Shown one piece after another: positions 8,201-56,907 of a stretch of 64,000 bases of DNA. The notes below the pieces were generated by a model. That model searched no databases. It was given only the letters and a program-made list of their open reading frames with translations, and was not told the DNA's origin. The stretch lies in UHGV virus genome UHGV-1374671; one strand, given 5' to 3'. How positions within the stretch are numbered: position 1 is the first letter of the stretch; the number at the start of each line of letters is the position of its first letter. A program made the translations under genes and the position numbers. This DNA is from a virus.

Positions 8201-8644
8201 ACAGCTTTAACACAGGGTTTCTATTTTGCGAACGGTGCAAATTGCACAAACGGACCGTTTACAGGAGCAAGCAATAATCAAGGCTGGGTTACGGTAAGAG
8301 CAATCCCGGCCGGAAATCATGCCCTGCAATTTTTTTACGGATTTAACACCGATGATTTCTTTGTCCGACGCTACACCAACAACGCGTGGGCATCCTGGAA
8401 ACGGATTACGACGAACGCGGCGTGCACGCCGAAAGTCGGAAGCGCCGTAGACTGCACAAGCGCACTGAAATCATCGGCCGGATACACGTGTCCGTCGAAC
8501 GGGTGGATATATGCGGATGGTATACAGCTCAATATCAACGGCGGCAATTTCTACACCAGCAGACTGTCGATGGTTCCGGTAATGTCCGGTGACGTTGTAA
8601 AATGTTCCGACGCTACGATCGGCGAGTTTTACGTGGCGCGATAA
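5213..8644 (+). CDS. large tail fibre / receptor-binding protein: N-terminal domain shared with ORF 32325, one LamG-like domain, C-terminal lower-GC module with three tandem knob-like domains
   Basis: SD AAGGAG. AFVTVTSAYTVIGVLDNEGNQWSLPNG...IWYVLFAAGGEG is paralogous to a segment of ORF 32325. DESRLLP linker, then LamG signature (EWTIDAWIKP...WHFIAVEK...YYLNGSPW). LSLTGGQMTGEL tail-fibre motif. Three ~110-aa aromatic-rich repeats (e.g. TQGVYWFPNG...WRYSETWTNWMT) resemble pyocin/tail-fibre knob domains. Confidence 0.8.
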   Translation: MKASSLKLLDSTREVVTAKNGVIDPELVKPAVLGMLSHDIETDAAAEDKATTPKAVNDFMSDKLLGLAAQYLTKQEVADVGIYPESAYEATQAKDLNTVTDQCSVVFQGGTGYTNAPFPEGEEAPAFLLRVYAATVDGTSYRTQYLTELTTGKTWVRGYVNQGWGVWVAGDASAGAPRMSFDKDDVQVESTGNDQNAAFVTVTSAYTVIGVLDNEGNQWSLPNGAITTNGAYTRIDVSSILASKNITQADMTGIWYVLFAAGGEGEVTPPVDESRLLPTGGKDGDVLSYQEGVDQGNGEDVFLLLQNELTDSAHGNASPVAVTTQGVTLTGDSNLQFDGNGSYLTAVLPVASIFAADKEWTIDAWIKPVANSSGWNYILTENNGDWGSHSIGLTWNADDQTLEQDTGGYVASVIKASNWPNASTPCAANQWHFIAVEKQKTSSGWSLNYYLNGSPWLQVPFTGDFVPFDSNTPFWFGGNTSDGGRYYKGEANKIRVTAGARYGGKAFAVPDREAAYEPPAGMPVWTAPSGGDIDETIDAKISAHNADSSAHPGKLSLTGGQMTGELKLGSSNGIRFNNADGYGVILRKDASNFFIMITAQDDENGSWTASRPLQLNFATSECNINGGATKDGKGNVITTTYAPLYHPTFSSGIEITSSTPFIDFHYNDSESDYTFRIVQNTADTLTLGGKVSVSNTLSVTSGGLTVAGSITSTGEILSNTTNSFRLIYGDYGAFWRNDGNDLYLMLTDAGNQTGSYNSLRPLTVDFATGVCDISGSALETETNLANTGIYPNVSMYTTQTSDFNTFLTQGVYWFPNGAHPNGPLGDDANCTGVLCVYNVRNTHYVQIFYMRSGTSEGNHIMYYRWRYSETWTNWMTISGNNELATGTSDYNNVTSPGSYYFSYGDNTSNVNAPANGPFHLIVHRYYNAAGTVNRVLQMAIPQIVSTGQTATVYIRTASWDNGAYTWQPWTKLITEDILEAVGVYPTSSVEPNLNFNTALTQGFYFANGANCTNGPFTGASNNQGWVTVRAIPAGNHALQFFYGFNTDDFFVRRYTNNAWASWKRITTNAACTPKVGSAVDCTSALKSSAGYTCPSNGWIYADGIQLNINGGNFYTSRLSMVPVMSGDVVKCSDATIGEFYVAR

Positions 8645-44486: not shown

Positions 44487-44504
44487 TGATAGGAAGTGTT
44501 GATT

Positions 44505-45122
44505 ATGTTGTTCAACGATTTTGTCAAGATGGCGGAAGAAGAAAACACCGACAATAAGAAGCCCGATATCGAGGGCGCGGTTCCAGTTTCTCAGAAAGAT
44601 CTTAACGTCACCTCTCCCAGTAACGTGGAGAAGGGACGCCACGGAATGGAACACGGGAAAGAGGACAACCCCGACAACGACCATGCCCTCGTCATGAACC
44701 TGCTGTACAAGGCGCTGGCTGATGAGCTGCTCGCCTGGTATCAATACTGGGTGTGCCGTAACCTGTCCCGTGGTCCTGGCAAGTTCGACGTGGATCCCGA
44801 GTTCGAGGAGCACATGAAAGAGGAATGGGAACATGTCGACTGGGTGATGGAGCGCATCAAGGAGCTCGGCGGCGCTCCCTACACCAATCCGAACCAGTGG
44901 TTGCCGAATGCGAACCCGTGGCCGGAAGTCACTGAAACCTCCGTACCCGCTCAGCTGGACAAGACCATCGAAGCCGAGAATACCGCGATCAAGTTCTACA
45001 AAGAAGCCTGCGAGGCGGTCCGGCATGTCGATCTCACCACGTACACGCTGTTCAAAAAGATTCTTGGTGAGGAAGAAAAGCATGCCTACGATCTGCACAT
45101 GCTGAAGGAAGCCGTGCAGTAA
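44505..45122 (+). CDS. ferritin-like four-helix-bundle protein (bacterioferritin/Dps-like)
   Basis: The ATG at 44505 has AGGAAGTG upstream. Iron-site-like spacing LADELLAWYQYW...EEWEHVDWVMERIKELGG...AENTAIKFYKEA...LGEEEKHAYDL. Confidence 0.55.
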   Translation: MLFNDFVKMAEEENTDNKKPDIEGAVPVSQKDLNVTSPSNVEKGRHGMEHGKEDNPDNDHALVMNLLYKALADELLAWYQYWVCRNLSRGPGKFDVDPEFEEHMKEEWEHVDWVMERIKELGGAPYTNPNQWLPNANPWPEVTETSVPAQLDKTIEAENTAIKFYKEACEAVRHVDLTTYTLFKKILGEEEKHAYDLHMLKEAVQ

Positions 45123-45168: not shown

Positions 45169-48100
45169 ATGGATGATATCAACGTGACGCCTGTTTTGGC
45201 GGACAGCTCCACAGTGGAGAACATTCAGGTTCGCCCGCAGCGTCCTCCCAAAACGGCAGCTGACTGGGTGCGCGACATGCGCATGTCTCCTGAAGTGAAC
45301 AAGACCACTGTCGGTGTGGAGACGGACCGGATAACTCCTGAGTTGCTGATGGCCACGTCGTCCAAGCTGCTTGGTATCTCCAGACGGGAGCAGGATCCGG
45401 ATCCCAAGGATTCCCTGCTCTTCCAGCGCTTCTACGGGCCGGCCGAATACTTTGCAGAACACATTCTGCGGGACGGCAACAAGGTGGCCCGTAACCTGCT
45501 GTGGAAAGCAACCAACAAGGGCAAGATTGACTTCGTACCGTCAGGAGCATTGGATCAGCACGTCAGCGATGTGTTCTACAGCAGCAAGCTGGCCCAGATG
45601 ATCGACGGGTCGTCTCCTTTGGAAACGGTGGACGCTTCCTTCAAGACCACCCGTATCGGCGAGGGCGGCGTCGCAGATGTGCAGTCGGCTCCTGATGAGA
45701 TGCGTACAGTGCAGCCTTCCTACTTCGGATACCTAGACTCCGTGCGCTGCTATTCGGACGATACCGAACTCATGACCAAAAATGGCTGGAAATTCGTTAC
45801 CGATATTACGGAAGACGATGAGCTTGCATGTTATATGGACGGCAGGTTGGAGTACCACAAACCAACCGCATTGAATGTATACGACTACAAGGGCAAGATG
45901 TACGGATACAAAGGTACGCATATCTCGTACCTGGTGACACCGAATCACCGGATGCATTCCAGATGTTATGGAGAACTCAGAGATGGGCGTCCTTGTGGTT
46001 ATAACATTCGTACAGCTGAGAGCATTCACGGTAAGAACAGGGTTGTAGATTCTGCCTGCCATTTGCCGTTACTGTGCAATGAGGATCAGAAATACTTTGA
46101 GCTCCCTGTGGTAGGTCCTAATCTGAAGAAAGAGCAGGTTCATGGCAATCCGCCAATGGGCGCCAGCTTGAAGAACGTGGACAAAGTGGACATCGTGAAG
46201 TTTGCCGAGTTCCTCGGATGGTACCTGGCTGAGGGTTCCTATGTGATCAATGAAACCAAAGGATACTACCGCGTTGATATTGCACAGTCCCCGGAAGTCA
46301 GTGCGGAAAACTACGAGCATATCAGACAGCTGATAGAATCTCTTCCCTTCAACGCAACCAATCCAGGTGCCGAGGAAAAAGCAAAAAGGGGCGGGCATGC
46401 CTTGTCCATCGCCAGAAAACAGCTGACCATATACGTCAGTCAGTTTGGAAAGTGCGAAGACAAGTACATACCTGAGTGGATTTTCTCAGCTCCGTTACAG
46501 GCCCGCAAAGCGTTTTGTTGGGCCCTTCTGCAAGGAGATGGACGGGAACAGAGACATCTCTGCACAAAGTCAAAGCGACTGGCTACTGACTTTGCCCGCC
46601 TGCTTTTTGAATTGGGTGAATCTGCCAAAGTATACCACGAAAAAGAAACCAGATATGAAAACCATCCTGGTATCTGGAATGTTTACTGGCACACCCGCAA
46701 AGAACGTCTTTTGGCTGGAAAAACACATAAGCACAAGGAAGGTGAATATTTCACTGAAGACTATACCGGCAAAGTGTACTGCCCGACCATACCTGGCGGT
46801 CTGGTGTACTGCCGCAGAGGCGAAAAGAGCGTTGGTTTCTGGTGCGGTAATAGTCCGGAGAGGTTACGCGTCGGATTGGATATGTATATGACCAAGAATG
46901 TGGTCAAGGGATCCGATGGAAAGCTGTACCAGAGATTCATCAACGCGCGTACCGGCAAGGAGGAGCTGGTTGACTCCGTAACAGCTTCCAGATCCATTGT
47001 GGCAGCGCCTGAGATGATGGACGCCGATACCAAGTCCATCTTCGCTCTTGGTGGTCGTACTGGCGTACGTATCGTACCCAAGGATAAGGTTGATTATTAT
47101 TTACCCAGAGCCGACGATGCGTACAGCATGTCGTCCAATATGGTGCCCATGTTCAATGGTGTGAAGGAAATGCGCCTGCTGATGGGATGCCTGCATCCGG
47201 GTACTCCGTTGATCACCATATCGGCGAAGAACGAGATCAACATCAAGCCGGCGAAATCCATTGGCAAGAATGCTTATGGAGTGCCTGGCTGCGATGCCAA
47301 AGGCAAGTCGCTGGGGTATCTGATCCGTAACAGCATTGCCAAGTTTCCCCAGAAGCGCAAGTGGTTCAAGAAGGTCGTGCTGATGTCGGGGCGGTCCCTG
47401 ATCACCAGCTACGATCACAGATGGCCAGTGCTGCGGGACGACAAGCTGGAGCTGGTGAACGCATCCGATCTTCAGCCCGGGGACAAGGTGCTCAGATCCA
47501 CGTTCAAGGATCTGCCCAATCGACGCACCTTTTTGCGCGGCGTACTGGTGAACAAGGATGTTGCCACGCTGCTGGGCTGCATCGTAAGGTCGGTCACCAA
47601 ACCTGACCCGGACAAGCTCCGGGTGGTGTACCAGCCTTCTCAGAAGAAGTTCATCGAGGCAGCCATCGAACGGCTCAAACTGGAGAACTCCCGCTTCTAC
47701 GCCAATGCCGGCGAGAAGTGCCTTGCCATTCATGACAGCAACTTCATCCAGTGGGTGGAGAAGGAGATCTGTCTGGAGCCGGAAGAGCGCAAGGTCCCCA
47801 CTGTGATTCTCAGTGCGTGCCTGGACATTGCGTCTCACTTCATCGACGCTTACACGGCCGACACCACCAAGGTCGGCATCGACAGCAACGAGGACATGTG
47901 GATCCTGGATATCCCCAGCATGATCTGCCGTGACGGTCTTGCGTTGCTGCTTGCCAGAATGCAGACGGATACCCTGTACCGGGATGCTGTGCGGGCAGAC
48001 GGAGTCAATCTGGCGTTGAAGCTGGTGGAACAGACCCCCACCTTCGGGGATTCCATTGTGGACGAGGTGAAAATTATACTCGAAGTAGAAAAGGTCCCGC

Positions 48101-51100
48101 TCATGATTGACATCGATATCGATGACAACATGTATGCGACCGCCAATGGAATCATCACACACAACTCCAAGTACCCGTTGCAGGCCATCTCCCTGCTGGA
48201 GCGGGAAGCTCCTTTGGTGAGAGGGCTGGATGAGGCGTCCGGCAGGGACATCCCGTCGTTGGCAGGCAAGTATCTCGGCGCCAGATTCGCCAACCAGGGC
48301 GGCACCGTCACCGCTGTGCGCAAGGACCGCATCGACGTCGTCTACGACGACGGCACCAAGGGCAGCGTTTCCCTGTACCAGAATTTCCCGATGAACGCCA
48401 AGGGGTACATCACCAACACGCCTGTGGTGAAAGCGGGACAGTCCTTCAAGAAGGGAGATGTATTAGCGGCGTCGAACTATACAGACGACAAAGGCGTGGC
48501 GGCCATCGGCAAGAATCTGAGATCCGGCTGGCTGTCCTGGAAGGGCGGCACCTATGAAGACGCTGTTGTAATCTCCGAATCAGCCGCCAAGAAGTTGACC
48601 AGCCGTACCATGTACAAATCGGCAGTCGACCTCGACAAGACAGTCAGTTTGGGAAAGAAGAACTACGTCTCCTGGAAGCCGTCCGAGTACACCAAGGACC
48701 AGCTGTCGGCGCTGGATGACAACGGAATCATTAAGCCGGGTTCCGTGCTTCGCAAAGGAGACCCGATGATTCTGGCGGTGCAGACATCCGAACCCTCTCC
48801 CGGGACGCTTGGCAAGCGCGTGCTGACGGATATCTCCGAGACCTGGGAACACGACCATCCGGGTGTGGTCACTGACGTGGTCAAGACCAGGAAGGGTGTG
48901 AAGGTGTTTGCCATTGTGGAAGCACCTGCGGAAGTGGGGGACAAGGTAAGCGGGAACTTCGGCAACAAGGGAGTAGTCTCGCAGCTTGGTAGAGAGTCCC
49001 AGGAAGAACAGGACGACGAGAACCAGGACTTCCAGATCCAGAAGATCGTACCGGACGCCATGATGCCCATTGGAGAGGACGGCAAGCCTCTGGATCTGCT
49101 GTTCAGTCCTCTTGGGCTTATCTCCCGTACGAACGCTTCCCAGATCCACGAGGCTCTTCTGGGCAAGATCGCCCGTAAGACTGGAAAACCGTTCGTCATG
49201 CCGGCCTTCTACAAGGGCGACCTTACGGAGTTCGTGGAGAACCAGCTGAAACAGAACAAGGTCAGCGACACGGAAGACCTGACGGATCCTTATACCGGCA
49301 GGAAGATCCCCAAAGTGCTGACCGGTGTGTCGTACATCTACAAGCTCAAGCACCAGGCCGAGTCCAAGCTGTCCGCACGCGGTACTGCCGAGTACACTGC
49401 CGAGGGCACGCCGGGTGGTTCTGGACTCACTGGGAGCAAAAGGTACGGAACTTTGGAGCAGTCCGCGATGGTCGGCCACGGTGCGTTTGACAACCTGCTT
49501 GATGCGAAACTCCTGCGTGGCCAGTCGAACTCGGATTTCTGGCGCAGCATCCGTACTGGAGAGATCCCGACGATTCCTGGAGAGCCCCTGGTGCACAAGA
49601 AGTTCTTCGCCCACCTTACAGGCTCCGGTGTGAACGTGCGCAAAACCCCGAAGGGCATCAGCGTGTTCTCGTTGTCCAACGACGATGTGAAAGAACTTGC
49701 CGGCCCCCGTGAGCTGAAATCCAAGGACACCTACGAAGCCAAGACATTCCGTCCCATCGATGGAGGACTCTTTGGTCAGGACCTGTTCGGCCCCAATGGA
49801 GACCGCTGGGCATACATCCAGCTGGACGAACCTCTGCCGAACCCTGTAATGGAGGAGCCTCTGGCGCGTCTTCTCAGAATGTCCACCAAGGACTTCATGG
49901 CAGTGGCCGCCGGCAAGGCTGAAGTGAATGGAATGAAATCCTCCGCCGACATCAAGGAACGCCTGTCCAGGATCAACTTGAAGGCCGAGGAACAGCAGGC
50001 CAAGCAGGAGTTCAAGGACGCCCCGATGTCTAAGAAGGACGCGGCGCTGAAGCGTTATCGGGACATCGCCCGCATGGCTGCGAATGAAGTGTCCCCTGAC
50101 CAGTACATGCTGGATAGGATTCCGGTGCTGCCTCCTGTCTTCCGTCCTGTCAGTACGCACAACGGACTGACCATGGTGGCCGACAGCAACTACCTGTATG
50201 CGCAGATGCTGGACGCCAGAGACGACGCCCGGGAAGCCCGCAACCTGCCCAAGGAATACCAGCAGCAGGCCAGGGAAAACCTGTACCGAAGCTGGAAGGA
50301 GCTGACCGGCATGTACGAGCCCGAGAACGTGAAGCTGAAGAACAAGCACGTGCGGGGGCTTCTGAAGTGGGCGCTTGGTGACAGTCCAAAATGGTCCGCG
50401 TTTCAGAGAAAGGTATTGGGCTCCACGGTGGACACGGTAGGCCGTGGTGTTATCACTCCGGATCCGCGCCTGAAGCTGAACCAGCTCGGCGTTCCTCTGC
50501 CGATGGCGTTGGGCATCTATGAGCCGTTCGTTGCTCGATCCATGGTCAAGCAGGGGTACTCTCCTGTGGAAGCCATGAAGATGATCAAGGTCCAGGACAA
50601 GCGCGTGATACCAGTGCTGCTTAACGTGATGAAGAACAGCCCTGTGCAGCTGAATCGGGCACCTTCGCTCCACAAGCTGAACATCATGGGATTCGAGCCT
50701 GTGCTCACTGCCGGGCACGCTGTCCGGGTAAACCCGTCCATTGTGGTGCCCTTTGCGGCGGACTTCGACGGCAACTGCTGCGATTTTGATAGTGTAATTT
50801 TCCTAAAATTATCAAAATCTGCGCTTGAAAAAACTGCTTTTATGTGCTATGTTGATCATAGTAACAAACCCGAACAAAACAAGGAGGTTTCTATGATCAC
50901 GGAAGACACAAGAGTCGTGGTGTTCAACCCGGATGAGACTGACCCGGATACTGTGTACTGCTCTATGAAGATCGGGGAGTTCCCGCGTAAGGGGGTGCCG
51001 GTGAAAGACCGGAACGGTGCTTTGGTGTACCCGGTTCCAGAAGGGGTAAGCGTACTGTCCTGCGACCCAGTTACAGGTGCTCCGAAGTTCTGCCCTGTGT

Positions 51101-52542
51101 CGGCTGTAACAGTGGAGGAGAACTGCCATACGGTAGAGTTGACTCTCGGCAGCAGAAAGATCATCGTGTCGGATAACGAATCCCTGGCCGCGTTCGACAG
51201 CAAGGCAGGTACGTTGATCAAAGTGTCCCCGGCAGAGATCGGAGATCGGATGATTCCTGTTCTGAAAAAGCAGCAGCTGCCATATGGCCCGTTCGGCACC
51301 AGGGACCTCGGCTGGATGTTCGGTGCGTTCATCTCCGATGGCTGGGTCACGCACAATATGGTGGGATACGCCAAAGTGGAAGCCAACAAGCGTGCTGAGT
51401 TCGTCAGGATCATGCGTGCGTATCACGAGAACTTTACTTGCAACGAATACACTGATCGTCCGCAGGCTGGAAAGAACAAGTTGGGCGCCTCCGTTAAGTT
51501 GCACCTGTGCAGCAAATCCCTGGCAGACTGGATGCGCAACTGGCAGCTCATAAACGAGGACTGTCCTGCGGCAGAGCGTGCTGCGCTGCGGAAGCAGATA
51601 AACAGCAAGATGATTCAGTACGGCTCCGAGGACTTCCTGTGGGGGCTGTTCTCCGGTCTCCTGGACGGTGACGGGTCCATCAGCAAAAACACGACGATGG
51701 AGAAGCCGCGCTTTACAGCCAGATTCAGCACCTCCAGCAAACAGCTGGCGGACGACATCTGCGCACTGTGTTATCGACTGGGTCTGCGTTACTCCATGAC
51801 CGTGGTACCTCCCAGAGGATTCTCCAATACGGCATACATCATCATCCCGTCCACTATTGACTTGCATGCCAAGCTGGACAAGCTCACCTGTATTGGTGAG
51901 CGGGAGATTCAGCTTATCTCGGAATGGAAGCAGCAGCCGTCGTACAAAGACACCAAAGACATGATCCCGCTGTCTGTTAAAGAAGCGGAAGTGCTGATTA
52001 AGCTGGCGAACGCCAGGAAAGACGTAGGAGTGTCCTCCGGGATCTACAAGACTAGAAAGAAGTCCTGTATCTACGGTGGTCGTGTTGGGCTGATGCGTTA
52101 CTGCGAGGAAATCAAGGAGATGTTCCCTGAGTTATACGCCCGTATTAAAAACGAGGACACCATTTGGCAGACTGTCACTTCCGTGGAGGACGCCGGCAAT
52201 CGCCAGGTGTTCGACTTGATGGTTGAGGGTACGAAAGTGTTTGCCATCAACAACGGCGTGATTATCTGGGACACCGCCAACGTGCACGTACCGGTATCCG
52301 ACAACGCCAGACGGGAGACCTATGAGAAGATGTTCCCGGAACGCAATCTGATCTCCATGCGTGAGCGCAAGGTGCTGTACAAGCCCGAAAAGGAGTACAT
52401 GCAGGGGATCTACGTGGCGACCCGCATGAAGAAGGGCAAGGATGTCCGACCGAAGATCTTCGGATCTGTGGAAGAAGCGCGTCAAGCGTTACGCAAGGGC
52501 ATTATTGATATTGATGATCCTATTGAAATACGCAAGCAATAA
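45169..52542 (+). CDS. bacterial-type RNA polymerase: beta C-terminal half fused in frame to beta' N-terminal half, interrupted by two inteins
   Basis: Aligns by eye to E. coli beta: TRIGEGGVADVQS...PSYFGY vs RISALGPGGL...PTHYGR; GDKVSGNFGNKGVVSQ vs GDKMAGRHGNKGVISK; PLGLISRTNASQI vs PLGVPSRMNIGQI. Then directly to beta': TFRPIDGGLFGQDLFGP vs TFKPERDGLFCARIFGP; PVLPPVFRP; PVLLNRAPSLHKLNIMGFEP; FAADFDGN...TANVHVP vs NADFDGDQMAVHVP. Confidence 0.85.
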   Translation: MDDINVTPVLADSSTVENIQVRPQRPPKTAADWVRDMRMSPEVNKTTVGVETDRITPELLMATSSKLLGISRREQDPDPKDSLLFQRFYGPAEYFAEHILRDGNKVARNLLWKATNKGKIDFVPSGALDQHVSDVFYSSKLAQMIDGSSPLETVDASFKTTRIGEGGVADVQSAPDEMRTVQPSYFGYLDSVRCYSDDTELMTKNGWKFVTDITEDDELACYMDGRLEYHKPTALNVYDYKGKMYGYKGTHISYLVTPNHRMHSRCYGELRDGRPCGYNIRTAESIHGKNRVVDSACHLPLLCNEDQKYFELPVVGPNLKKEQVHGNPPMGASLKNVDKVDIVKFAEFLGWYLAEGSYVINETKGYYRVDIAQSPEVSAENYEHIRQLIESLPFNATNPGAEEKAKRGGHALSIARKQLTIYVSQFGKCEDKYIPEWIFSAPLQARKAFCWALLQGDGREQRHLCTKSKRLATDFARLLFELGESAKVYHEKETRYENHPGIWNVYWHTRKERLLAGKTHKHKEGEYFTEDYTGKVYCPTIPGGLVYCRRGEKSVGFWCGNSPERLRVGLDMYMTKNVVKGSDGKLYQRFINARTGKEELVDSVTASRSIVAAPEMMDADTKSIFALGGRTGVRIVPKDKVDYYLPRADDAYSMSSNMVPMFNGVKEMRLLMGCLHPGTPLITISAKNEINIKPAKSIGKNAYGVPGCDAKGKSLGYLIRNSIAKFPQKRKWFKKVVLMSGRSLITSYDHRWPVLRDDKLELVNASDLQPGDKVLRSTFKDLPNRRTFLRGVLVNKDVATLLGCIVRSVTKPDPDKLRVVYQPSQKKFIEAAIERLKLENSRFYANAGEKCLAIHDSNFIQWVEKEICLEPEERKVPTVILSACLDIASHFIDAYTADTTKVGIDSNEDMWILDIPSMICRDGLALLLARMQTDTLYRDAVRADGVNLALKLVEQTPTFGDSIVDEVKIILEVEKVPLMIDIDIDDNMYATANGIITHNSKYPLQAISLLEREAPLVRGLDEASGRDIPSLAGKYLGARFANQGGTVTAVRKDRIDVVYDDGTKGSVSLYQNFPMNAKGYITNTPVVKAGQSFKKGDVLAASNYTDDKGVAAIGKNLRSGWLSWKGGTYEDAVVISESAAKKLTSRTMYKSAVDLDKTVSLGKKNYVSWKPSEYTKDQLSALDDNGIIKPGSVLRKGDPMILAVQTSEPSPGTLGKRVLTDISETWEHDHPGVVTDVVKTRKGVKVFAIVEAPAEVGDKVSGNFGNKGVVSQLGRESQEEQDDENQDFQIQKIVPDAMMPIGEDGKPLDLLFSPLGLISRTNASQIHEALLGKIARKTGKPFVMPAFYKGDLTEFVENQLKQNKVSDTEDLTDPYTGRKIPKVLTGVSYIYKLKHQAESKLSARGTAEYTAEGTPGGSGLTGSKRYGTLEQSAMVGHGAFDNLLDAKLLRGQSNSDFWRSIRTGEIPTIPGEPLVHKKFFAHLTGSGVNVRKTPKGISVFSLSNDDVKELAGPRELKSKDTYEAKTFRPIDGGLFGQDLFGPNGDRWAYIQLDEPLPNPVMEEPLARLLRMSTKDFMAVAAGKAEVNGMKSSADIKERLSRINLKAEEQQAKQEFKDAPMSKKDAALKRYRDIARMAANEVSPDQYMLDRIPVLPPVFRPVSTHNGLTMVADSNYLYAQMLDARDDAREARNLPKEYQQQARENLYRSWKELTGMYEPENVKLKNKHVRGLLKWALGDSPKWSAFQRKVLGSTVDTVGRGVITPDPRLKLNQLGVPLPMALGIYEPFVARSMVKQGYSPVEAMKMIKVQDKRVIPVLLNVMKNSPVQLNRAPSLHKLNIMGFEPVLTAGHAVRVNPSIVVPFAADFDGNCCDFDSVIFLKLSKSALEKTAFMCYVDHSNKPEQNKEVSMITEDTRVVVFNPDETDPDTVYCSMKIGEFPRKGVPVKDRNGALVYPVPEGVSVLSCDPVTGAPKFCPVSAVTVEENCHTVELTLGSRKIIVSDNESLAAFDSKAGTLIKVSPAEIGDRMIPVLKKQQLPYGPFGTRDLGWMFGAFISDGWVTHNMVGYAKVEANKRAEFVRIMRAYHENFTCNEYTDRPQAGKNKLGASVKLHLCSKSLADWMRNWQLINEDCPAAERAALRKQINSKMIQYGSEDFLWGLFSGLLDGDGSISKNTTMEKPRFTARFSTSSKQLADDICALCYRLGLRYSMTVVPPRGFSNTAYIIIPSTIDLHAKLDKLTCIGEREIQLISEWKQQPSYKDTKDMIPLSVKEAEVLIKLANARKDVGVSSGIYKTRKKSCIYGGRVGLMRYCEEIKEMFPELYARIKNEDTIWQTVTSVEDAGNRQVFDLMVEGTKVFAINNGVIIWDTANVHVPVSDNARRETYEKMFPERNLISMRERKVLYKPEKEYMQGIYVATRMKKGKDVRPKIFGSVEEARQALRKGIIDIDDPIEIRKQ
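45748..48165 (+). mobile_element. intein 1 (806 aa) with LAGLIDADG homing endonuclease, in the beta segment
   Basis: Begins with Cys (CYSDDTELMTKNGWKFV), block B VTPNHRM, LAGLIDADG motifs LGWYLAEGSY and ALLQGDG, ends ...GIITHN followed by Ser. Confidence 0.7.
50776..52272 (+). mobile_element. intein 2 (499 aa) with LAGLIDADG endonuclease, inserted inside the NADFDGD catalytic loop of beta'; atypical C-terminus ...IIWD
   Basis: Starts CCDFDSVIF right after DFDGN. LAGLIDADG motifs MFGAFISDGW and LFSGLLDGDGSI. C-terminal block VFDLMVEGTKVFAINNGVIIWD followed by T(ANVHVP); the canonical ending would be VVHN. Confidence 0.6.
50780..50895 (+). promoter_or_regulatory. AT-rich island inside intein 2 with TTGAAA-N17-TATGTT, SD AAGGAGG and an in-frame ATG
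   Basis: tgtaattttcctaaaattatcaaaatctgcgcTTGAAAaaactgcttttatgtgcTATGTTgatcatagtaac...AAGGAGGtttctATG at 50893, same frame as the host ORF. Local GC is far below the surrounding ~58%. Confidence 0.45.
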
Positions 52543-52562
52543 CCCGAAGTGAGGCACAGCAT

Positions 52563-52751
52563 ATGCAGAGTATGAGACATCTCTACGGACTCGACAAACA
52601 GGCGGCTCAGAAGAAACAGGCCTTCGCCAAGAAGCTCGCCGACTTCATGCGTCACCAGCGCATGGAGGCGCAGCAGAAAGCCGCTGCTGCCGTCGAACGC
52701 GGTAAGAACAACGTCCTGGCCATGATCCGTCAGGCCTGCAACAGCAAATAA
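52563..52751 (+). CDS. small protein with RHLYGLxK N-terminus
   Basis: SD GAGG. MQSMRHLYGLDKQAA parallels the start of the next gene. Confidence 0.4.
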   Translation: MQSMRHLYGLDKQAAQKKQAFAKKLADFMRHQRMEAQQKAAAAVERGKNNVLAMIRQACNSK

Positions 52752-52762
52752 GGAGCGCGGCA

Positions 52763-53746
52763 ATGAGTGAGAAATACAGACATCTCTACGGACTGGGTAA
52801 AGCGGCTGTGGCTGTACTTACTCCGGAAGCAGAGCAAGCGGCTGTTCAGCCTCCGATGGACCCTGCCATGGCTGGCGGCGCTCCTCCGATGGATCCGATG
52901 GCGGCCGGAGGAATGCCTCCGCAGGGCGGCGCTGGAGCTCCTCCGATGGGTGGCGCTCCGATGCCGCCGCCGGCAGGCGGACAGATCCCGCCGGAAATCC
53001 TCCAGGACCAGATGTTCATCCAGTTTCTGCAGGAGGCGCTGGGGGTGTCCCTTGATCCGGCGTCGGGCATGTTCATGGGCCCGAATGGCGAACAGATCCC
53101 GCCCCAGCTTATCATTGAGGCCTACCAGGAGTTCCAGACGATGCAGGCCCAGGGCGGCATGCCGCCTGCAGGAGCTGGGGCTCCGCCTGCGGCAGGCATG
53201 GATCCGGCTATGGCAGCAGGTGGTGCTCCGATGCCGGCAGGAGCCCCGCCGATGGATCCCATGGCTGCGGGAATGCCTCCGGAAGCGGCTGGTGGAGTTC
53301 CTCCGGAAATGGGAGGAACCCCTGAAGAAGTGCCTCCGGAAATGGGCGCTGCACCTGAAGCAGGTGCTCCTGCGCCGGCTGCTGGACCGGAAGCGATGAT
53401 GCAGGAACTGCTGTCTGGAGTAGAGGCCGTGCTGCAGTCCTTCTCCGGAAAGCTGGACAAGCAGCTCAGTGCCATCCAGGACAAGATCGAGGCTCTGAAG
53501 ATGGATGTCGAATCACTGCGGGACACCACGGACCAGCGCACCAAGATGGAAGAGGACGAGGCTGCCCGTATCCGGGAAGAGCTGGAAGCAGAGCTTGTGC
53601 CCACCGCCGTTGCCCAGAAGGAGGCCAGCATTTCCATTCCGGCTCCGCAGCCGATCAAGATGCCGACCGTTGAGAACAAGCCGAGCACCAGGAAGCGTAC
53701 CGGCACTCCGAACCTGTTCTCCGTGATCCAGGGAGGAAAACGATGA
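52763..53746 (+). CDS. Pro/Ala/Met/Gly-rich low-complexity protein with RHLYGLxK N-terminus and coiled-coil C-terminus
   Basis: SD AAGGAG. MSEKYRHLYGLGKAAV. Repeats GGAPPMDPMAAGGMPP. Confidence 0.5.
   Translation: MSEKYRHLYGLGKAAVAVLTPEAEQAAVQPPMDPAMAGGAPPMDPMAAGGMPPQGGAGAPPMGGAPMPPPAGGQIPPEILQDQMFIQFLQEALGVSLDPASGMFMGPNGEQIPPQLIIEAYQEFQTMQAQGGMPPAGAGAPPAAGMDPAMAAGGAPMPAGAPPMDPMAAGMPPEAAGGVPPEMGGTPEEVPPEMGAAPEAGAPAPAAGPEAMMQELLSGVEAVLQSFSGKLDKQLSAIQDKIEALKMDVESLRDTTDQRTKMEEDEAARIREELEAELVPTAVAQKEASISIPAPQPIKMPTVENKPSTRKRTGTPNLFSVIQGGKR
52850..53350 (+). repeat. low-complexity Pro/Ala/Met-coding repeats
   Basis: Seen in the translation. Confidence 0.5.
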
Positions 53747-54585
53747 ACTATATCGAAGTACAGAAGATGCGGAAAGAAGCCGCATCGGAATCCAGTCTTG
53801 ACAAGTTCTTGATGAATCACGAGACTCTCGGCAAGCCCTACATGGAAAAAATGTCACCGCAGGAAATGCTGTATCACGGCGTAGGGGCCGTGGGCGGTGG
53901 AGCCCTCGGTTACATGCTGTCTCGTATGATCCATCGTAAGCCCAGCGGCATGCTGCGCGCCCTGTATACGCTGGGAGGCGCGGCTGCCGGTGGTGTTGCC
54001 CCGTACTATCTGCTGCGGGCCAAGAAGGATGAACAGGGGCTGACGGAAGCGGATCGCATGCGCCTCCAGGACGCTTGGGCGCATGCGCCCAAGGCACTGC
54101 AGGAAGCGCGCAATCAGGCAGAGGGACTGAAGCCCAATGGTGAGGAGCTGCCCAACGAGAAACCTATTCAGACCCGTATCGCGGATGCTATTCCCGGCAA
54201 TATATGGTGGTACGGCGGTGCTGGTGCGGCCATCGATGCCGGCAGATTCGCAAAAGAGCGTCTTAACATTTTTGAGCAGAACCGGAAGCTCCAGCCGAAC
54301 GAAGTGAAAGTAACGGTTAAGCCTCCCAAAGGCAAACCTACGACCACCACTACAACCGAGACTGCTGCCGAGAAACCGTATCCGCGTTTCTTCCCCACAA
54401 AGGAAGAGTTCAAGAAGACACCTGTGGCCGCTACCAACTACACGTTGTTTAAGCGCCTCAGAGGTACACTTGGCGGCGTCACGTTAGGTACGGTACTGGC
54501 GCTTCTCCGCAGCAAGGCAGGAGACAATCAAGTTCTTGACCCGCTGTCCAAGGAGAACTTGGACCAAGCGCTGCAGAACAAGTAA
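53743..54585 (+). CDS. glycine-zipper 2TM membrane protein
   Basis: VGAVGGGALGYMLS...LYTLGGAAAGGVAPYYLL. Confidence 0.5.
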   Translation: MNYIEVQKMRKEAASESSLDKFLMNHETLGKPYMEKMSPQEMLYHGVGAVGGGALGYMLSRMIHRKPSGMLRALYTLGGAAAGGVAPYYLLRAKKDEQGLTEADRMRLQDAWAHAPKALQEARNQAEGLKPNGEELPNEKPIQTRIADAIPGNIWWYGGAGAAIDAGRFAKERLNIFEQNRKLQPNEVKVTVKPPKGKPTTTTTTETAAEKPYPRFFPTKEEFKKTPVAATNYTLFKRLRGTLGGVTLGTVLALLRSKAGDNQVLDPLSKENLDQALQNK

Positions 54586-54600
54586 GCAGAAACAGGGATT

Positions 54601-56907
54601 GTGACCATGTTGACGACACTGGGCAGAGAACTGATTCGGGCAAAGCTCCCCGAGAAGTACAAGGGGTACGCGGATCAGGTTCTGGACAAGAAAACACTGA
54701 CCAATCTGATGACCGAGATCGCCAGAGAGGATCCGGAAGGGTACATCGACGTTCTGCAGGATCTCAACAACATTGGACAGGAAGTCGTGTCCACATACGG
54801 ACGGGACACCTCGCTCTCGTATGCAGACCTGAAAGTCGACAATGAGATCAAAGCCCTGAACAAGCGCCTGCGGCAGGTCATCAAGGGAGTCCTCAATGAC
54901 GATTCCCTTACCAGCGAGCAGAAGGAAGAGAAGATCAAGGAACTGGGATACAAGTACACGCAGAAGGTGCAGGACGCGGTATTCCAGGACAACGACAAGC
55001 GAGGAACGTCGCTGGCCTCCCAGATCAACTCAGGCTCTCGTGGAAATAAAACCCAGTTGATGCAGCTCCAGTTCGGCAACATGCTGATGAAAGATGCACT
55101 CAACCGGGACATTCCTTATCTGATGATAGACCCGTTCGTCCATGGTGCGTCACCGATGTCGTACTGGGTGTCCGCGTCCAGTGGGCGCAAGGGGTTCTTC
55201 GATGTGCAGGCCGCCACCGGACAGGCCGGATATCTGGGCAAGCAGGTGACAGCCGCCACACACAGAACCACCATTGAGAAAGAGGACTGCGGCACCACCG
55301 ACACCGGAGTGCCGTTTCCTGCCAACAGCACGAAGAACGTGGGCGCGGTTCTGCTGCGCCCCTTCCACAAATACCCGGCAGGCACGGTTGTCACTGAGAA
55401 GATGGTTGCCGAGGCCGATGACGACGAGGAGATGATTCTGCGCAGTCCAACCACCTGCAAGTGCAAGGACGGCATCTGCGCCAAGTGCAATGGGCTGGGA
55501 GAGAATGGGAAGTTTCCGGCAGTGGGCGAGTATGTGCCGCTGAATGCTGCGCGTTCTTTTGTTGAGCCGGTTACGCAAGGAGGGATCTCGTGTCTGCATC
55601 CTGGAACACAGGTACGTATGGCAGACTGGTCTATCAAAGCACTGCGTGATATCAGGGTAGGCGATCGCGTTATGGGCGTTCACACCGATGGTTCTTATGA
55701 ACCCGCCCTCGTCACCCGGACGTTCGATAATGGCATTGTTCCGATGTACTTGACAAAGTTCCGTAAGGGCACTGATAAGATTGCCGTGCTGATGTCCACC
55801 ACATGTCACAAAATGCTCTTATCTGTCGACGGGGATGCTCCTGCCATTCTTCCTGTAGGTACAGATGGCCAGCTCAGCGCGTGTCAGACTATCGGACCTG
55901 CAGGGTATACTGATAAGCAGATTAAGATGTCACACTTCAAACGCATCTCTCAGGAATATATCGGAGACATGCAATCGCTGGATATTGAGATCGACAACGA
56001 CTCCCATCTGTTTCTGTTGGCCAATGGCCTGGTGGTTTCCAATTCCAAACATGGCGCGGGTATTGGAGGCAAGCGATGGGTCGATCCCGAGGGGCCTGAC
56101 CAGCCGCACGGGTTCCGTGCCCTTGAGCGTCTGTTCATGGCTCCCAGCAACTTCCCGGGCGGAGCCGTACTTGCCCCGCAGGACGGCACGGTAAGCAACA
56201 TTCAGAAGGCCTCCCAGGGCGGCCATTACATCACGGTGGGCAACAAGACGCTGTACTGCTCTCCAGATCGCACTATGAAAGTCAAAGTCGGGGACAAGGT
56301 GTCCGCCGGCGACGTACTTACCAATGGTGTGCCCAATCCTGCCGAGGTGATGGATCTCAAAGGACTGGGAGAGGGCCGGCATTACTTCGTCAACAAATTG
56401 AACGAAACCTTGAAGGCACAGGGCTGGGCAACAGACCGCAGAAATATCGAGGCGTTTACACGCAGCATGATTAGTAAGGTCAAAATCACCGACCCTGACG
56501 GATACAAGTCGTATCTGCCTGGTGATATTGCCGATTACAACGAGATCATGGCTGACTGGGAGCCCAGGGAAGGATCCGTCACAGTGAAAGCGGATCAGGC
56601 GCTGAACAAGTACCTGGAGAAACCGACCCTGTACTTCAGCGTCGGCACCAGGATCACCCCGTCAGTTGTGCAGCAGTTGAAGAAATACAAGTTTGATACT
56701 GTGACGGTGTCGGATAAGGAGCCTCCTTTCAAAGCTCAGTTCCTGCGTCCTGCTGTTGTGCTGCAGAACGACAAGAACTGGTTGCCCAGGCTGGCGGGAG
56801 AGCGGCTGCAGCCAGCACTGTTTGATGCAGCGCAGAAGGGCATCACCGACGAGTACGACTCGCCGAGTTACGTTGACAAAATCGTGGCGGCGCCATTTAA
56901 ACCATAA
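54601..56907 (+). CDS. RNA polymerase beta' C-terminal half, with mini-intein
   Basis: [20 protein letters not shown] vs [28 protein letters not shown] vs VTEDDCGT; Zn/Cys cluster; EPVTQGGIS...SKHGAGIGG vs GEPGTQLTMRTFHIGG. Confidence 0.85.
   Translation: [768 protein letters not shown]
55591..56043 (+). mobile_element. mini-intein (151 aa, no endonuclease) in the beta' trigger-loop region
   Basis: [13 protein letters not shown]..., block B [9 protein letters not shown], ends LANGLVVSN followed by Ser. Confidence 0.75.

What the first reader, a model, noticed from the sequence alone, without database searches (positions are those of the whole stretch)
45748..48165. Very large (806 aa) LAGLIDADG intein in the beta moiety
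Canonical termini (Cys1 ... HN/Ser), a TxxH block and two LAGLIDADG motifs. The length far exceeds typical ~450-550 aa endonuclease inteins, which suggests extra domains such as DNA-binding modules. Together with intein 2 it makes about 53% of this RNAP ORF intein sequence.
Basis: seen in the sequence. Interest (0 to 1): 0.55.

Follow-up and report, generated by a model that had tools for sequence, protein, structure and literature searches.

The report
Two ordinary inteins, not one giant
The supposed 806-residue giant intein in this gut-phage RNA polymerase gene is two separate, normal-sized self-splicing inteins (368 and 326 residues) with 112 residues of real polymerase between them, so it is ordinary, although the gene family is unusually crowded with inteins.

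Summary
The coordinates 45748-48165 are real boundaries, but of two different elements. The ORF 45169-52542 (2457 aa) is a fused RNA polymerase beta/beta'-N protein of an uncultured ~176-kb human-gut phage.

- **Intein A:** aa 194-561 (nt 45748-46851), Cys1...Gly-Asn|Ser. It has an intact double-motif LAGLIDADG endonuclease.
- **Extein between them:** aa 562-673 (nt 46852-47187). It aligns with E. coli beta 563-682 and is present in every full-length homologue.
- **Intein B:** aa 674-999 (nt 47188-48165), Cys1...His-Asn|Ser. It has a LAGLIDADG-fold domain that lacks at least one catalytic acid.

Among 116 full-length relatives all four presence/absence combinations of A and B occur. Each intein alone gives a confident AlphaFold model (pLDDT 90 and 94) that matches endonuclease-bearing inteins in the PDB.

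A looks newly acquired: GC3 is 0.53 against 0.73 for the exteins, and it is absent from all relatives with ~90% extein identity. B looks old and fixed: host-like composition and dN/dS 0.05, equal to the polymerase.

There is no giant intein and no extra domain. Inteins make up 48.6% of the ORF, not 53%.

More interesting, and outside the finding: the third intein (beta' DFDGD motif) belongs to a large family that always has Asn in place of the third catalytic Asp. A fourth, mini-intein sits in the beta'-C gene.

The parts
45169..45747 (+). N-extein: N-terminal part of the RNA polymerase beta-like moiety (ORF aa 1-193), ending ...GYLDSVR
   Evidence: 94% identical to P0001. Aligns to E. coli beta up to E562.
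45748..46851 (+). Intein A (368 aa): Cys1 ... Gly-Asn, followed by Ser+1. Hint fold plus a double-motif LAGLIDADG endonuclease. Inserted at the equivalent of E. coli beta E562|T563 (GRVCPIE|TPEG).
   Evidence: Absent (0/368 columns) from all 12 homologues first aligned, and the join is exact. Matches end to end the inteins in ThyX, epimerase, methylase and RpoB hosts. AF2 pLDDT 90.0, pTM 0.88. Foldseek hits: TliVMA, PhoVMA, PI-PkoII and PI-SceI inteins, E 3e-16 to 1e-7. GC 0.482 and GC3 0.533.
45931..45954 (+). Intein A block B, LVTPNHRM (T64, H67, M69 in intein numbering)
   Evidence: V63, T64 and H67 are invariant; P65 and M69 are nearly invariant in alignment A1. Near-identical motif (V-S/T-PNHRM) in the AceL NrdHF intein 6zgq.
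46201..46239 (+). Intein A LAGLIDADG motif 1 (FAEFLGWYLAEGS; G157, E162, G163)
   Evidence: G157 and G163 invariant, E162 nearly invariant. Lies at the end of model helix 149-162.
46513..46548 (+). Intein A LAGLIDADG motif 2 (FCWALLQGDGRE; G263, D264, G265)
   Evidence: Nearly invariant GDG. Lies at the end of model helix 250-264. Pfam LAGLIDADG_3 E 1.9e-4. PI-PkoII sequence match.
46768..46851 (+). Intein A blocks F and G: GKVYCPTIPGGLVYCRR ... GFWCGN. Cys345 is at block F position 4; the penultimate residue is Gly, not His.
   Evidence: V343, Y344, C345 and P349 nearly invariant. Coordinates.
46852..47187 (+). Extein segment between the two inteins (ORF aa 562-673): SPERLRVGLD...EMRLLMG. Equivalent to E. 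coli beta T563-G682.
   Evidence: Fully present (111-112 of 112 columns) in the 11 full-length homologues of the 12 aligned, and at least 80% covered in all 116 full-length homologues. 101/112 identical in P0001. Aligns contiguously with cellular RpoB across both junctions, E 8e-25. Residue map. dN/dS 0.046.
47188..48165 (+). Intein B (326 aa): Cys1 ... Thr-His-Asn, followed by Ser+1. Hint fold plus a LAGLIDADG-fold domain. Inserted at the equivalent of E. coli beta G682|A683 (RALMG|ANMQRQ).
   Evidence: Present in 92 of 116 full-length homologues and absent in 24. AF2 pLDDT 94.2, pTM 0.92. Foldseek TliVMA intein E 1e-18, TMq 0.79, plus PI-PfuI, PI-PkoII and I-DmoI. Pfam Intein_splicing E 3.9e-5. 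GC3 0.758. dN/dS 0.049.
47398..47430 (+). Intein B block B, LITSYDHRWPV (H77, W79)
   Evidence: H77 and W79 nearly invariant in alignment A2.
47494..48036 (+). Intein B endonuclease-like domain (about intein aa 103-283). Motif 1 VATLLGCIVRSV has Ser135 where the catalytic acid should be. Motif 2 is ASHFIDAYTADT.
   Evidence: This stretch is missing from the mini-inteins at the same site (P0097, P0102, P0110). Two alpha-beta-beta-alpha-beta-beta-alpha halves in the model. I-DmoI matches. 'R/K-S' is conserved in place of D/E-G. dN/dS 0.038.
48100..48165 (+). Intein B blocks F and G: LMIDIDIDDNMYATANGIITHN
   Evidence: D308, D310, D313, G321, H325 and N326 invariant. gp41-1 intein alignment. TIGR01443 intein_Cterm 15.5 bits against a cut-off of 15.6.
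48166..50775 (+). Extein: rest of beta, fused to the N-terminal half of beta' up to ...PFAADFDGN
   Evidence: Pfam RNA_pol_Rpb2_6 E 5e-43 and Rpb1_2 E 8e-19. Aligns to E. coli beta up to residue 1337 and to beta' 18-463.
50776..52272 (+).
   Evidence: Pfam LAGLIDADG_3 and Intein_splicing. Absent from P0001 and other relatives. Boundary by homology to the Ssp DnaB mini-intein.
55591..56043 (+). Fourth intein: a 151-aa mini-intein in the separate beta'-C gene (54601-56907), GGIS|CLHPGTQV...GLVVSN|SKHGAGIGG. From the flanking sequence (TQGGIS...SKHGAGIGG) I infer it lies in the trigger-loop region; this was not mapped by alignment.
   Evidence: Pfam Rpb1_5 plus a weak Hom_end_hint hit. Sequence, coordinates. 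NCBIfam intein-containing radical SAM model E 2e-7 and intein_Cterm 15.0 bits.

Best explanation
The region holds two independent inteins, A and B, inserted in two conserved active-centre motifs of the beta moiety of a phage RNA polymerase. They are separated by 112 residues of polymerase.

Shown here:
- A and B are precise in-frame insertions relative to intein-free homologues.
- Each occurs with or without the other among relatives.
- Each folds on its own as a Hint splicing domain interrupted by a LAGLIDADG-fold domain.
- Each has a Cys at position 1, a block-B His, a C-terminal Asn and a Ser at +1.

Inferred from established intein chemistry, not tested: after translation each intein excises itself in four steps. 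These are an N-S acyl shift at Cys1, trans-esterification to Ser+1, cyclisation of the terminal Asn, and an O-N shift. This restores ...DSVR-SPER... and ...LLMG-SKYP... so that the polymerase can fold.

Intein A keeps both LAGLIDADG acids (E162, D264). It has foreign base composition and is missing from the closest relatives. It is therefore most likely a recently arrived, still mobile homing element that cuts intein-free alleles during co-infection.

Intein B is fixed in most of the clade. It has host-like composition, has lost at least one endonuclease acid, and is under purifying selection as strong as on the polymerase. It is most likely an old resident that can no longer home and is retained because imprecise loss would be lethal.
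For: 1. **Alignment with homologues.** Removing aa 194-561 and 674-999 gives a protein colinear with intein-free relatives (P0118, P0105, P0106, P0116, P0095). The 112-aa middle piece is present in all of these and is 101/112 identical in P0001.
2. **Independence of A and B.** Among 116 full-length homologues: A-B+ 72, A+B+ 20, A-B- 19, A+B- 5.
3. **Fit to cellular RpoB.** The computationally spliced sequence aligns without a break across both junctions. M. tuberculosis beta 428-737 scores E 8e-25; E. coli beta 508-825 scores E 1e-18. Site A maps to E562|T563 and site B to G682|A683.
4. **DNA level.** After deleting 1104 nt the gene is colinear with the intein-A-free allele on contig L002 (81% nt identity).
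5. **Structure.** AF2 gives pLDDT 90.0 for A and 94.2 for B. The top PDB matches for both are endonuclease-bearing inteins (7qsu, 7qst, 2cw7, 1dq3, 1vde) and I-DmoI.
6. **Intein A is a portable module.** It matches with 100% coverage the inteins inside ThyX, NAD-epimerase, DNA methylase and RpoB proteins.
7. **Mini-inteins** lacking the endonuclease domain occupy both sites in other relatives.
8. **Age contrast.** GC3 is 0.533 for A, 0.758 for B and about 0.73 for the exteins. A is absent from all 24 relatives with ~90% extein identity. B is 90% identical in P0001, the same as the extein. dN/dS is 0.049 for B and 0.052 for the extein.
Against: - No experiment: neither splicing nor endonuclease activity was observed.
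- Pfam and NCBIfam support is below the curated cut-offs for both inteins.
- Intein A lacks the penultimate His (Gly367). It also carries a conserved Cys at block F position 4, so its route (class 1 or class 3-like) is uncertain.
- The closest known intein A relatives (P0050, P0052) are about 70% identical, the same as their exteins. Horizontal arrival is therefore supported by composition and distribution, not by a near-identical donor.
- dS between the compared alleles is 1.0-1.7, which is near saturation, so the dN/dS values are rough.
- The inference that intein B's endonuclease is inactive rests on motif alignment only.
Confidence: 0.93

Rival explanations
1. One reading: one 806-aa intein (Cys194...His998-Asn999|Ser1000) whose extra length comes from added domains such as DNA-binding modules.
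For: The outer termini look canonical, and there is one TxxH block and two clear LAGLIDADG motifs.
Against: aa 562-673 is fully present (111-112 of 112 columns) in the 11 full-length homologues of the 12 first aligned, including five that lack both inteins, and at least 80% covered in all 116 full-length homologues. It aligns to cellular RpoB 563-682. Homologues carry either half alone. An internal ...CGN|S junction and a second Cys1 (CLHPGT) are present. Each half folds as a complete intein.
Confidence: 0.01
2. One or both elements are dead or non-splicing Hint insertions, and the polymerase gene is a decaying pseudogene or works with the insertions in place.
For: Family-model scores are below threshold. 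Intein A lacks the penultimate His. Intein B's endonuclease motif 1 lacks its acid.
Against: The 2457-codon ORF is uninterrupted. Cys1, the block-B His, the terminal Asn and Ser+1 are conserved across diverged homologues. dN/dS is about 0.05 in both intein B and the exteins. The insertion points lie inside motifs (GRVCPIE|TPEG and RALMG|ANMQRQ) that line the active centre, so hundreds of extra residues there could hardly be tolerated; this last point is inference from RNA polymerase structures.
Confidence: 0.04
3. Mechanistic variant for intein A: it splices by the class 3 route. In that route the block-F Cys (C345 of the intein, Cys538 of the ORF) attacks the N-terminal junction and forms the first branched thioester. 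Cys1 would not initiate.
For: Intein A has Met at block B:12 (M69), Cys at F:4 (C345, nearly invariant) and no penultimate His. The experimentally proven class 3 AceL NrdHF intein has an unusual 'MCT' triplet and also lacks that His (PMC7891396). That intein is the closest solved mini-intein by sequence, with a near-identical V(S/T)PNHRM block B. Relatives at the shifted site A' have Thr at G:5 (FWTGN).
Against: Intein A has a Cys at position 1, which class 3 inteins are defined as lacking. Position G:5 is Cys, not Thr, in this copy. No experiment was done.
Confidence: 0.25

Closest known systems
Endonuclease-bearing class 1 inteins with solved structures (TliVMA/PhoVMA inteins 7qsu, 7qss, 7qst; PI-PfuI 1dq3; PI-PkoII 2cw7; PI-SceI 1vde)
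   Same: Hint splicing domain split by a two-lobed LAGLIDADG domain. Cys1, a block-B His, a terminal Asn and a Ser/Thr/Cys at +1. These are the best fold matches for both inteins. PI-PkoII also matches intein A's second LAGLIDADG region by sequence.
   Different: Sequence identity is only 10-17%. The host protein (phage RNA polymerase beta) and the insertion sites differ. Both inteins are smaller (368 and 326 aa against 361-537 aa for these chains). Intein A lacks the penultimate His and has Cys at F:4. Intein B's motif 1 lacks the catalytic acid.
Inteins in the second-largest subunit of eukaryotic and giant-virus RNA polymerases (RPB2, RPA2, RPC2, viral RPO; Goodwin et al. 2006, PMC1635734)
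   Same: Several non-allelic inteins in one RNA polymerase subunit family. [quoted passage not shown] They must be spliced before assembly.
   Different: Those hosts are nuclear or NCLDV genes; here the host is a tailed-phage fused beta/beta' gene. Whether any of those sites is allelic with E562|T563 or G682|A683 could not be checked, because the figure with the junctions is not held.
AceL NrdHF naturally split class 3 intein (6zgq; Hoffmann et al. 2020, PMC7891396)
   Same: Near-identical block B (V-S/T-PNHRM with Met at B:12), Cys at block F:4, and no penultimate His.
   Different: AceL NrdHF is split, has no endonuclease and starts with Ala. Intein A is contiguous, carries an endonuclease and starts with Cys.
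Multi-intein proteins such as M. smegmatis DnaB (two inteins; PMC6195587), and M. jannaschii RFC (three) and T. erythraeum ribonucleotide reductase (four), the latter two as cited in PMC1635734
   Same: Several independent inteins in one essential nucleic-acid enzyme, each at a conserved motif.
   Different: The host protein differs. Here there are three inteins in one ORF plus a fourth in the partner gene of the same enzyme.

Membership tests
Intein (Hint-fold protein-splicing element) | Precise in-frame insertion whose removal restores the sequence of intein-free homologues | tested here: met
   Met for both A (aa 194-561) and B (aa 674-999). The spliced sequence is colinear with cellular RpoB.
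Intein (Hint-fold protein-splicing element) | Hint (Hedgehog/intein) fold with N- and C-terminal splicing halves | tested here: met
   AF2 pLDDT 90.0 (A) and 94.2 (B). Foldseek matches to solved inteins at E 3e-16 and 1e-18, and to mini-inteins and the Hedgehog autoprocessing domain. The Pfam Intein_splicing model is below cut-off for B and gives no hit for A.
Intein (Hint-fold protein-splicing element) | Class 1 catalytic residues: Cys/Ser/Thr at position 1, block B Thr/Ser-x-x-His, C-terminal Asn, Cys/Ser/Thr at +1 | tested here: met
   A: C1, T64-P-N-H67, N368, S+1. B: C1, S-Y-D-H77, N326, S+1.
Intein (Hint-fold protein-splicing element) | Penultimate His (common but not universal) | tested here: inconclusive
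   B has His325. A has Gly367, and Gly is conserved in its family (WCGN, WIGN, WTGN).
Intein (Hint-fold protein-splicing element) | Actual self-excision with ligation of the exteins | not testable with these tools
   Needs expression and mass spectrometry.
Double-motif LAGLIDADG homing endonuclease | Two alpha-beta-beta-alpha-beta-beta-alpha lobes, each headed by a LAGLIDADG helix | tested here: met
   Secondary-structure order in both models. I-DmoI and intein-endonuclease fold matches. Pfam LAGLIDADG_3 scores 22.0 bits against a cut-off of 22.5 for A.
Double-motif LAGLIDADG homing endonuclease | An acidic residue (Asp/Glu) at the end of each LAGLIDADG helix | tested here: inconclusive
   A meets it: E162 and D264, both nearly invariant. 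B does not meet it in motif 1 (Ser135, conserved as R/K-S). Motif 2 is ambiguous: Asp225 lies three residues past the helix end.
Double-motif LAGLIDADG homing endonuclease | Site-specific cleavage of the intein-free allele | not testable with these tools
   Needs a cleavage assay on the P0001-type allele.
Class 3 intein | No nucleophile at position 1 | tested here: not met
   Intein A and its relatives start with Cys.
Class 3 intein | WCT triplet: Trp B:12, Cys F:4, Thr G:5 (as defined in PMC7891396) | tested here: inconclusive
   Intein A has Met69, Cys345 and Cys366. Only F:4 matches, although Met at B:12 equals the proven AceL 'MCT' variant. Intein B has Trp79, Asp at F:4 and Thr324, which gives class 1.
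   aa 562-673 is fully present (111-112 of 112 columns) in the 11 full-length homologues of the 12 first aligned, and at least 80% covered in all 116 full-length homologues.

The most novel reading that the evidence does not exclude
Intein B is no longer a mere parasite. It is fixed in most of this phage clade. Its endonuclease-like domain has lost at least one catalytic acid, yet it evolves under purifying selection as strong as on the polymerase itself (dN/dS 0.04 against 0.05). One reading not excluded by the evidence is that this domain, and the need to splice up to four inteins around the catalytic centre, has been co-opted. It could act as a post-translational timer or checkpoint for maturation of the phage RNA polymerase, for example a redox- or condition-dependent splicing step through the Cys nucleophiles. 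Similarly, intein A, with both Cys1 and a class-3-type block-F Cys, could be a mechanistic intermediate between class 1 and class 3 inteins.
Probability: 0.12. Interest if true: 0.6.

Novelty: new member of a known kind. Interest (0 to 1): 0.3.

Why it matters
For annotation: the gene should be described as a fused beta/beta'-N RNA polymerase with three inteins, plus a fourth in the beta'-C gene. It should not be described as carrying a giant intein. Automatic domain models miss inteins A and B, so such phage polymerases are easily mis-sized or mis-split.

For intein biology: this polymerase family is a dense natural collection. It has at least 7 insertion sites and up to 4 inteins per protein. 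Full-length and mini forms occur at the same site, and related inteins sit at sites three codons apart. A young mobile intein and an old fixed one sit 112 residues apart in the same gene. That makes it a convenient system for studying the homing cycle, and for finding new small inteins for protein engineering.

The finding itself changes no concept.

Tried and rejected
- **Pfam on the whole ORF and on segments.** It detects only the third intein convincingly. Intein A gives no Hint hit and intein B is below cut-off. I therefore did not rely on it.
- **Sequence search of the PDB with each intein.** Only weak partial hits (E 3e-4 to 0.07). Useful for motifs, not as proof.
- **The search for homologous proteins with intein A.** It did not return the polymerase-borne relatives already known (P0046, P0050, P0052), nor the window's own protein. 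The word index is incomplete, so the absence of a near-identical donor intein means little.
- **Search for a strain polymorphic for intein A in viral contigs.** The empty-site junction GACTCCGTGCGC|AGTCCGGAGAGG gave 0 hits. The occupied junction also gave 0 hits, so this phage is simply not in that collection and the test is uninformative. One search used wrongly guessed codons and is void.
- **DNA-pattern search for an intein-free DFDGN-T allele.**
  - 0 hits in viral contigs.
  - 2 hits in metagenome contigs, both out-of-frame chance matches.
The numbers are therefore small.
- **Literature.** No paper in the held library describes inteins of this phage polymerase family or the DFDGN junction. 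Leads on crAss-like Zeta phages, Jug phages and Staphylococcus jumbo phages concerned other genes.
- **Allelism with eukaryotic RPB2 inteins.** It could not be decided, because the junction sequences are in a figure that is not held.
- **Considered and rejected:** a nested intein (the middle piece is extein) and a frameshift or assembly artefact (the identical protein is found on 4 contigs from independent assemblies).

Full report
**1. The gene**

The finding lies in one uninterrupted ORF, 45169-52542 (+), 2457 aa. Pfam finds RNA_pol_Rpb2_6 (E 5e-43) and RNA_pol_Rpb1_2 (E 8e-19) in it. Local alignment of the intein-less sequence to E. coli shows beta residues 339-1337 followed by beta' residues 18-551. 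The protein is therefore a fused beta/beta'-N polypeptide. The rest of beta' (Rpb1_5) is encoded by a separate gene at 54601-56907.

The identical protein occurs on contigs of about 176 kb from human gut metagenomes. The window also encodes a gp34-like long tail fibre and large Laminin_G proteins, so this is an uncultured tailed phage. The nearest cultured relatives of the polymerase are only about 31% identical: Vibrio phages D69, D181 and D148, and Salmonella phage Arash. In Arash the homologous gene lies two genes downstream of the portal gene.

**2. Checking the observation**

- Residue 194 (nt 45748) is Cys in ...GYLDSVR|CYSDDTELMT.
- Residues 998-1000 are His-Asn|Ser in ...GIITHN|SKYPLQ (nt 48165/48166).

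There is an internal C-terminal junction...GFWCGN|SPERLRVGLD, at aa 561/562. There is also a second N-terminal junction...EMRLLMG|CLHPGTPLIT, at aa 673/674.

**3. The decisive test: homologues with and without the insertions**

A search with the computationally spliced protein returned 421 relatives at E <= 1e-5. The 120 listed are 1266 to 2210 aa long. In a MAFFT alignment with 12 of them:

| ORF segment | Result in the 12 homologues |
|---|---|
| aa 194-561 | Absent from all 12 (0/368 columns) |
| aa 562-673 | Fully present (111-112/112 columns) in the 11 that are full-length; 101-102/112 identical in the closest relatives; 48-59/112 identical in the five that lack both inteins |
| aa 674-999 | Complete in six; absent from P0118, P0105, P0106, P0116 and P0095; partly present in the truncated P0093 |

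The intein-free sequences read ...DPVR|S(A/P)E... and ...RLLMG|(S/A/G)K... exactly at the predicted joins.

Across the full-length proteins of the whole set (116, the window's own ORF included), all four combinations occur: A-B+ 72, A+B+ 20, A-B- 19, A+B- 5.

At DNA level, deleting the 1104 nt of element A makes the gene colinear with the allele on contig L002, at 81% nt identity.

The spliced protein aligns as one unbroken stretch with cellular RpoB: M. tuberculosis beta 428-737 at E 8e-25, and E. coli beta 508-825 at E 1e-18. The residue map is:

| Site | Position in E. coli | Motif |
|---|---|---|
| A | beta E562\|T563 | GRVCPIE\|TPEG |
| B | beta G682\|A683 | RALMG\|ANMQRQ |
| Middle piece | beta 563-682 | |

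The '806-aa intein' is therefore two inteins plus 112 residues of polymerase. Inteins account for 48.6% of the ORF, not 53%.

**4. Intein A (nt 45748-46851, 368 aa)**

*Fold and relatives.* The AF2 model built on an alignment of 29 sequences has pLDDT 90.0 and pTM 0.88. Its best PDB matches are endonuclease-bearing inteins: TliVMA at E 3e-16, then PhoVMA, PI-PkoII and PI-SceI. I-DmoI and mini-inteins follow. The 368-aa unit matches with 100% coverage the inteins inside ThyX, NAD-epimerase, DNA-methylase and RpoB proteins. It is thus a portable module.

*Conserved residues* (intein numbering):
- C1, T64 and H67 (block B, LVTPNHRM).
- G157, E162 and G163; G263, D264 and G265. Both LAGLIDADG motifs keep their acids.
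- V343, Y344 and C345 (block F).
- N368, followed by Ser+1.

*Two non-canonical points.* The penultimate residue is Gly, and block F position 4 is Cys rather than Asp. With Met at B:12, this resembles the 'MCT' variant of the class 3 triplet. That variant was proven experimentally in the AceL NrdHF intein, which also lacks the penultimate His (PMC7891396). AceL NrdHF is also the closest solved mini-intein by sequence. Intein A nevertheless starts with Cys, so the sequence alone does not tell whether it uses the class 1 or a class 3-like route.

*Age.* GC is 0.482 and GC3 is 0.533, against GC3 of about 0.73 for the exteins. By my arithmetic from the numbers, that is a difference of about 7 standard errors. 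Intein A is missing from all 24 relatives whose exteins are about 90% identical to the window's. Its nearest known relatives sit in polymerases only 70% identical and are themselves 70% identical. The vertically inherited intein B has diverged to about 44% over the same distance. All of this points to recent horizontal arrival by homing. No donor was identified.

**5. Intein B (nt 47188-48165, 326 aa)**

*Fold.* The AF2 model has pLDDT 94.2 and pTM 0.92. Foldseek gives the TliVMA intein at E 1e-18 with TMq 0.79, then PI-PfuI, PI-PkoII, PI-SceI and I-DmoI.

*Conserved residues.* C1, H77 and W79 (block B); D308, D310 and D313 (block F); T324-H325-N326, followed by Ser+1.

*Endonuclease-like domain.* Mini-inteins of 128-157 aa at the same site in other relatives lack residues ~103-283, which delimits this domain. 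Its first LAGLIDADG helix ends in Arg-Ser (conserved as R/K-S) where Asp/Glu-Gly is expected. The second motif has an Asp three residues beyond the helix end. The endonuclease is therefore probably inactive or at most a nickase. This is inference.

*Age.* Composition equals that of the host gene (GC3 0.758). Identity to P0001 equals that of the extein (90% and 90%). dN/dS against the L002 allele is 0.049 overall and 0.038 in the endonuclease-like domain, compared with 0.052 for the extein. dS is near saturation, so these ratios are rough. Intein B is an old, fixed, selectively maintained resident.

**6. How it most likely works**

*Shown here:*
- Two autonomous Hint plus LAGLIDADG-fold units.
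- Both inserted exactly at two active-centre motifs.
- Both with conserved splicing residues.

*Inferred:*
- Both must self-excise by the standard four-step pathway before beta can fold. The motifs they interrupt line the catalytic cleft; Goodwin et al. make the same argument for eukaryotic RPB2 inteins (PMC1635734).
- Intein A's endonuclease drives homing into intein-free alleles during co-infection.
- Intein B persists because only precise deletion is viable.

**7. Wider context found on the way**

The polymerase family is an intein hot spot. The alignment of 121 proteins shows insertions of 60 or more residues at seven or more positions. They lie after ORF aa 193, 673, ~1260-1270, 1320, 1422 and 1741 and within the DFDGD motif (after aa 1868-1869). 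Each protein carries 0 to 4 of them: 13 have none, 20 have one, 70 have two, 16 have three and 2 have four.

The window's phage has four in its polymerase. Three are in this ORF. The fourth is a 151-aa mini-intein in the beta'-C gene (nt 55591-56043), which I place in the trigger-loop region from the flanking sequence only, without an alignment.

Inteins homologous to A also occur three codons downstream (...SPE|C...FWTGN|S...) in other relatives.

**8. The unexplained item**

The third intein (nt 50776-52272) sits in the beta' Mg-binding motif.

- *Intein-free relatives* read DFDG-D-T/Q/A....
- *This intein* reads DFDG-N|C...(W/Y/F)-D|T. The same pattern holds in all 44 representatives whose N-terminal junction could be read, out of 148 inspected from 522 clusters at 50% identity. 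The C-terminal ...D|T/S junction holds in 127 of the 130 where it could be read.
- *By homology,* the Asp is the intein's last residue: it aligns with the terminal Asn of the Ssp DnaB mini-intein. Thr is +1.
- *Block B* has Glu where His is expected. S132, N134, S136, D480 and D499 are at least 95% conserved in 49 representatives.
- *Canonical splicing* would therefore leave Asn in place of the third catalytic Asp (E. coli beta' D464).
- *A second intein family* at the same site starts with Ser/Thr and keeps Asp at -1. One Ala1 intein also keeps Asp.
- *No intein-free DFDGN allele* was found, but the numbers searched are small.

Possible explanations, none tested:
- Asn is tolerated by the polymerase, and is selected because an Asp(-1) thioester with Cys1 would self-cleave.
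- Asn is deamidated after splicing.
- The chemistry is non-canonical.

This deserves its own investigation. It is more surprising than the finding I was asked to evaluate.

**9. Verdict**

The interpretation as one giant intein with extra domains is wrong. What is there is two new members of a well-known kind. The minor specialist interest lies in three points:
- a young and an old intein side by side in one gene;
- a Cys1 intein with class-3-like block residues;
- a very intein-dense phage polymerase family.

Noticed in passing
window 50755-52290 (ORF aa 1863-2374): The third intein, in the beta' Mg-binding motif, reads DFDG-N|CCDFDS...VIIWD|T, while intein-free relatives read DFDG-D-T. Asn stands where the third catalytic Asp (E. 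coli beta' D464) should be. The intein ends in Asp, not Asn. The penultimate residue is Trp or Tyr, and block B has Glu in place of His. The N-terminal pattern holds in all 44 readable junctions among 148 representatives inspected (522 clusters at 50% identity). Canonical splicing would give DFDGN-T. A second intein family at the same site (Ser/Thr1 ... VVQD|T) keeps Asp at -1. Unexplained.
   Followed up: partly
window 55591-56043, inside gene 54601-56907 (+): A 151-aa mini-intein (CLHPGTQV...GLVVSN|S) interrupts the separate beta'-C gene. From the flanking sequence (...TQGGIS|...|SKHGAGIGG) I infer this is the trigger-loop region; it was not mapped by alignment. It is the fourth intein in this phage's RNA polymerase.
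   Followed up: partly
homologues P0001-P0120 of ORF 45169-52542: The polymerase family is an intein hot spot. Insertions of 60 or more residues occur at 7 or more positions, after ORF aa 193, 673, ~1260-1270, 1320, 1422 and 1741 and within the DFDGD motif (after aa 1868-1869). Each protein has 0-4 of them, and full-length and mini forms occur at the same site. Only 13 of 121 proteins have none.
   Followed up: partly
site A region, window 45730-46870; homologues P0059-61, P0066, P0070, P0099-P0103: Inteins clearly related to intein A (VPGG.FY.R...FWTGN) sit three codons downstream in other relatives (...VRSPE|C...N|SLRVGLD), using the second Ser of S-P-E-S as +1. This looks like a short ectopic shift of an intein between neighbouring sites, an event usually considered very rare. 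P0045 and P0031 end in Gln instead of Asn.
   Followed up: partly
window 44496-45122 (+): The gene immediately upstream of the polymerase encodes a ferritin-like protein (Pfam PF00210 on the called product). It is conserved in the same position in related contigs. This is unusual cargo for a phage; its function was not examined.
   Followed up: no
window 5213-8644, 32325-37721 and the polymerase genes 45169-56907; locus L001: The polymerase genes lie among structural genes: a gp34-like long tail fibre and a 1798-aa Laminin_G protein. In Salmonella phage Arash the homologous polymerase gene lies two genes downstream of the portal gene. This hints that the enzyme might be a virion-associated polymerase.
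   Followed up: no
homologues P0105-P0120, after ORF aa 27: Fourteen more distant, mostly intein-free relatives carry a 154-177-aa insertion near the N-terminus, after the equivalent of aa 27. It does not have intein-like termini in the alignment and is probably a lineage-specific domain.
   Followed up: no
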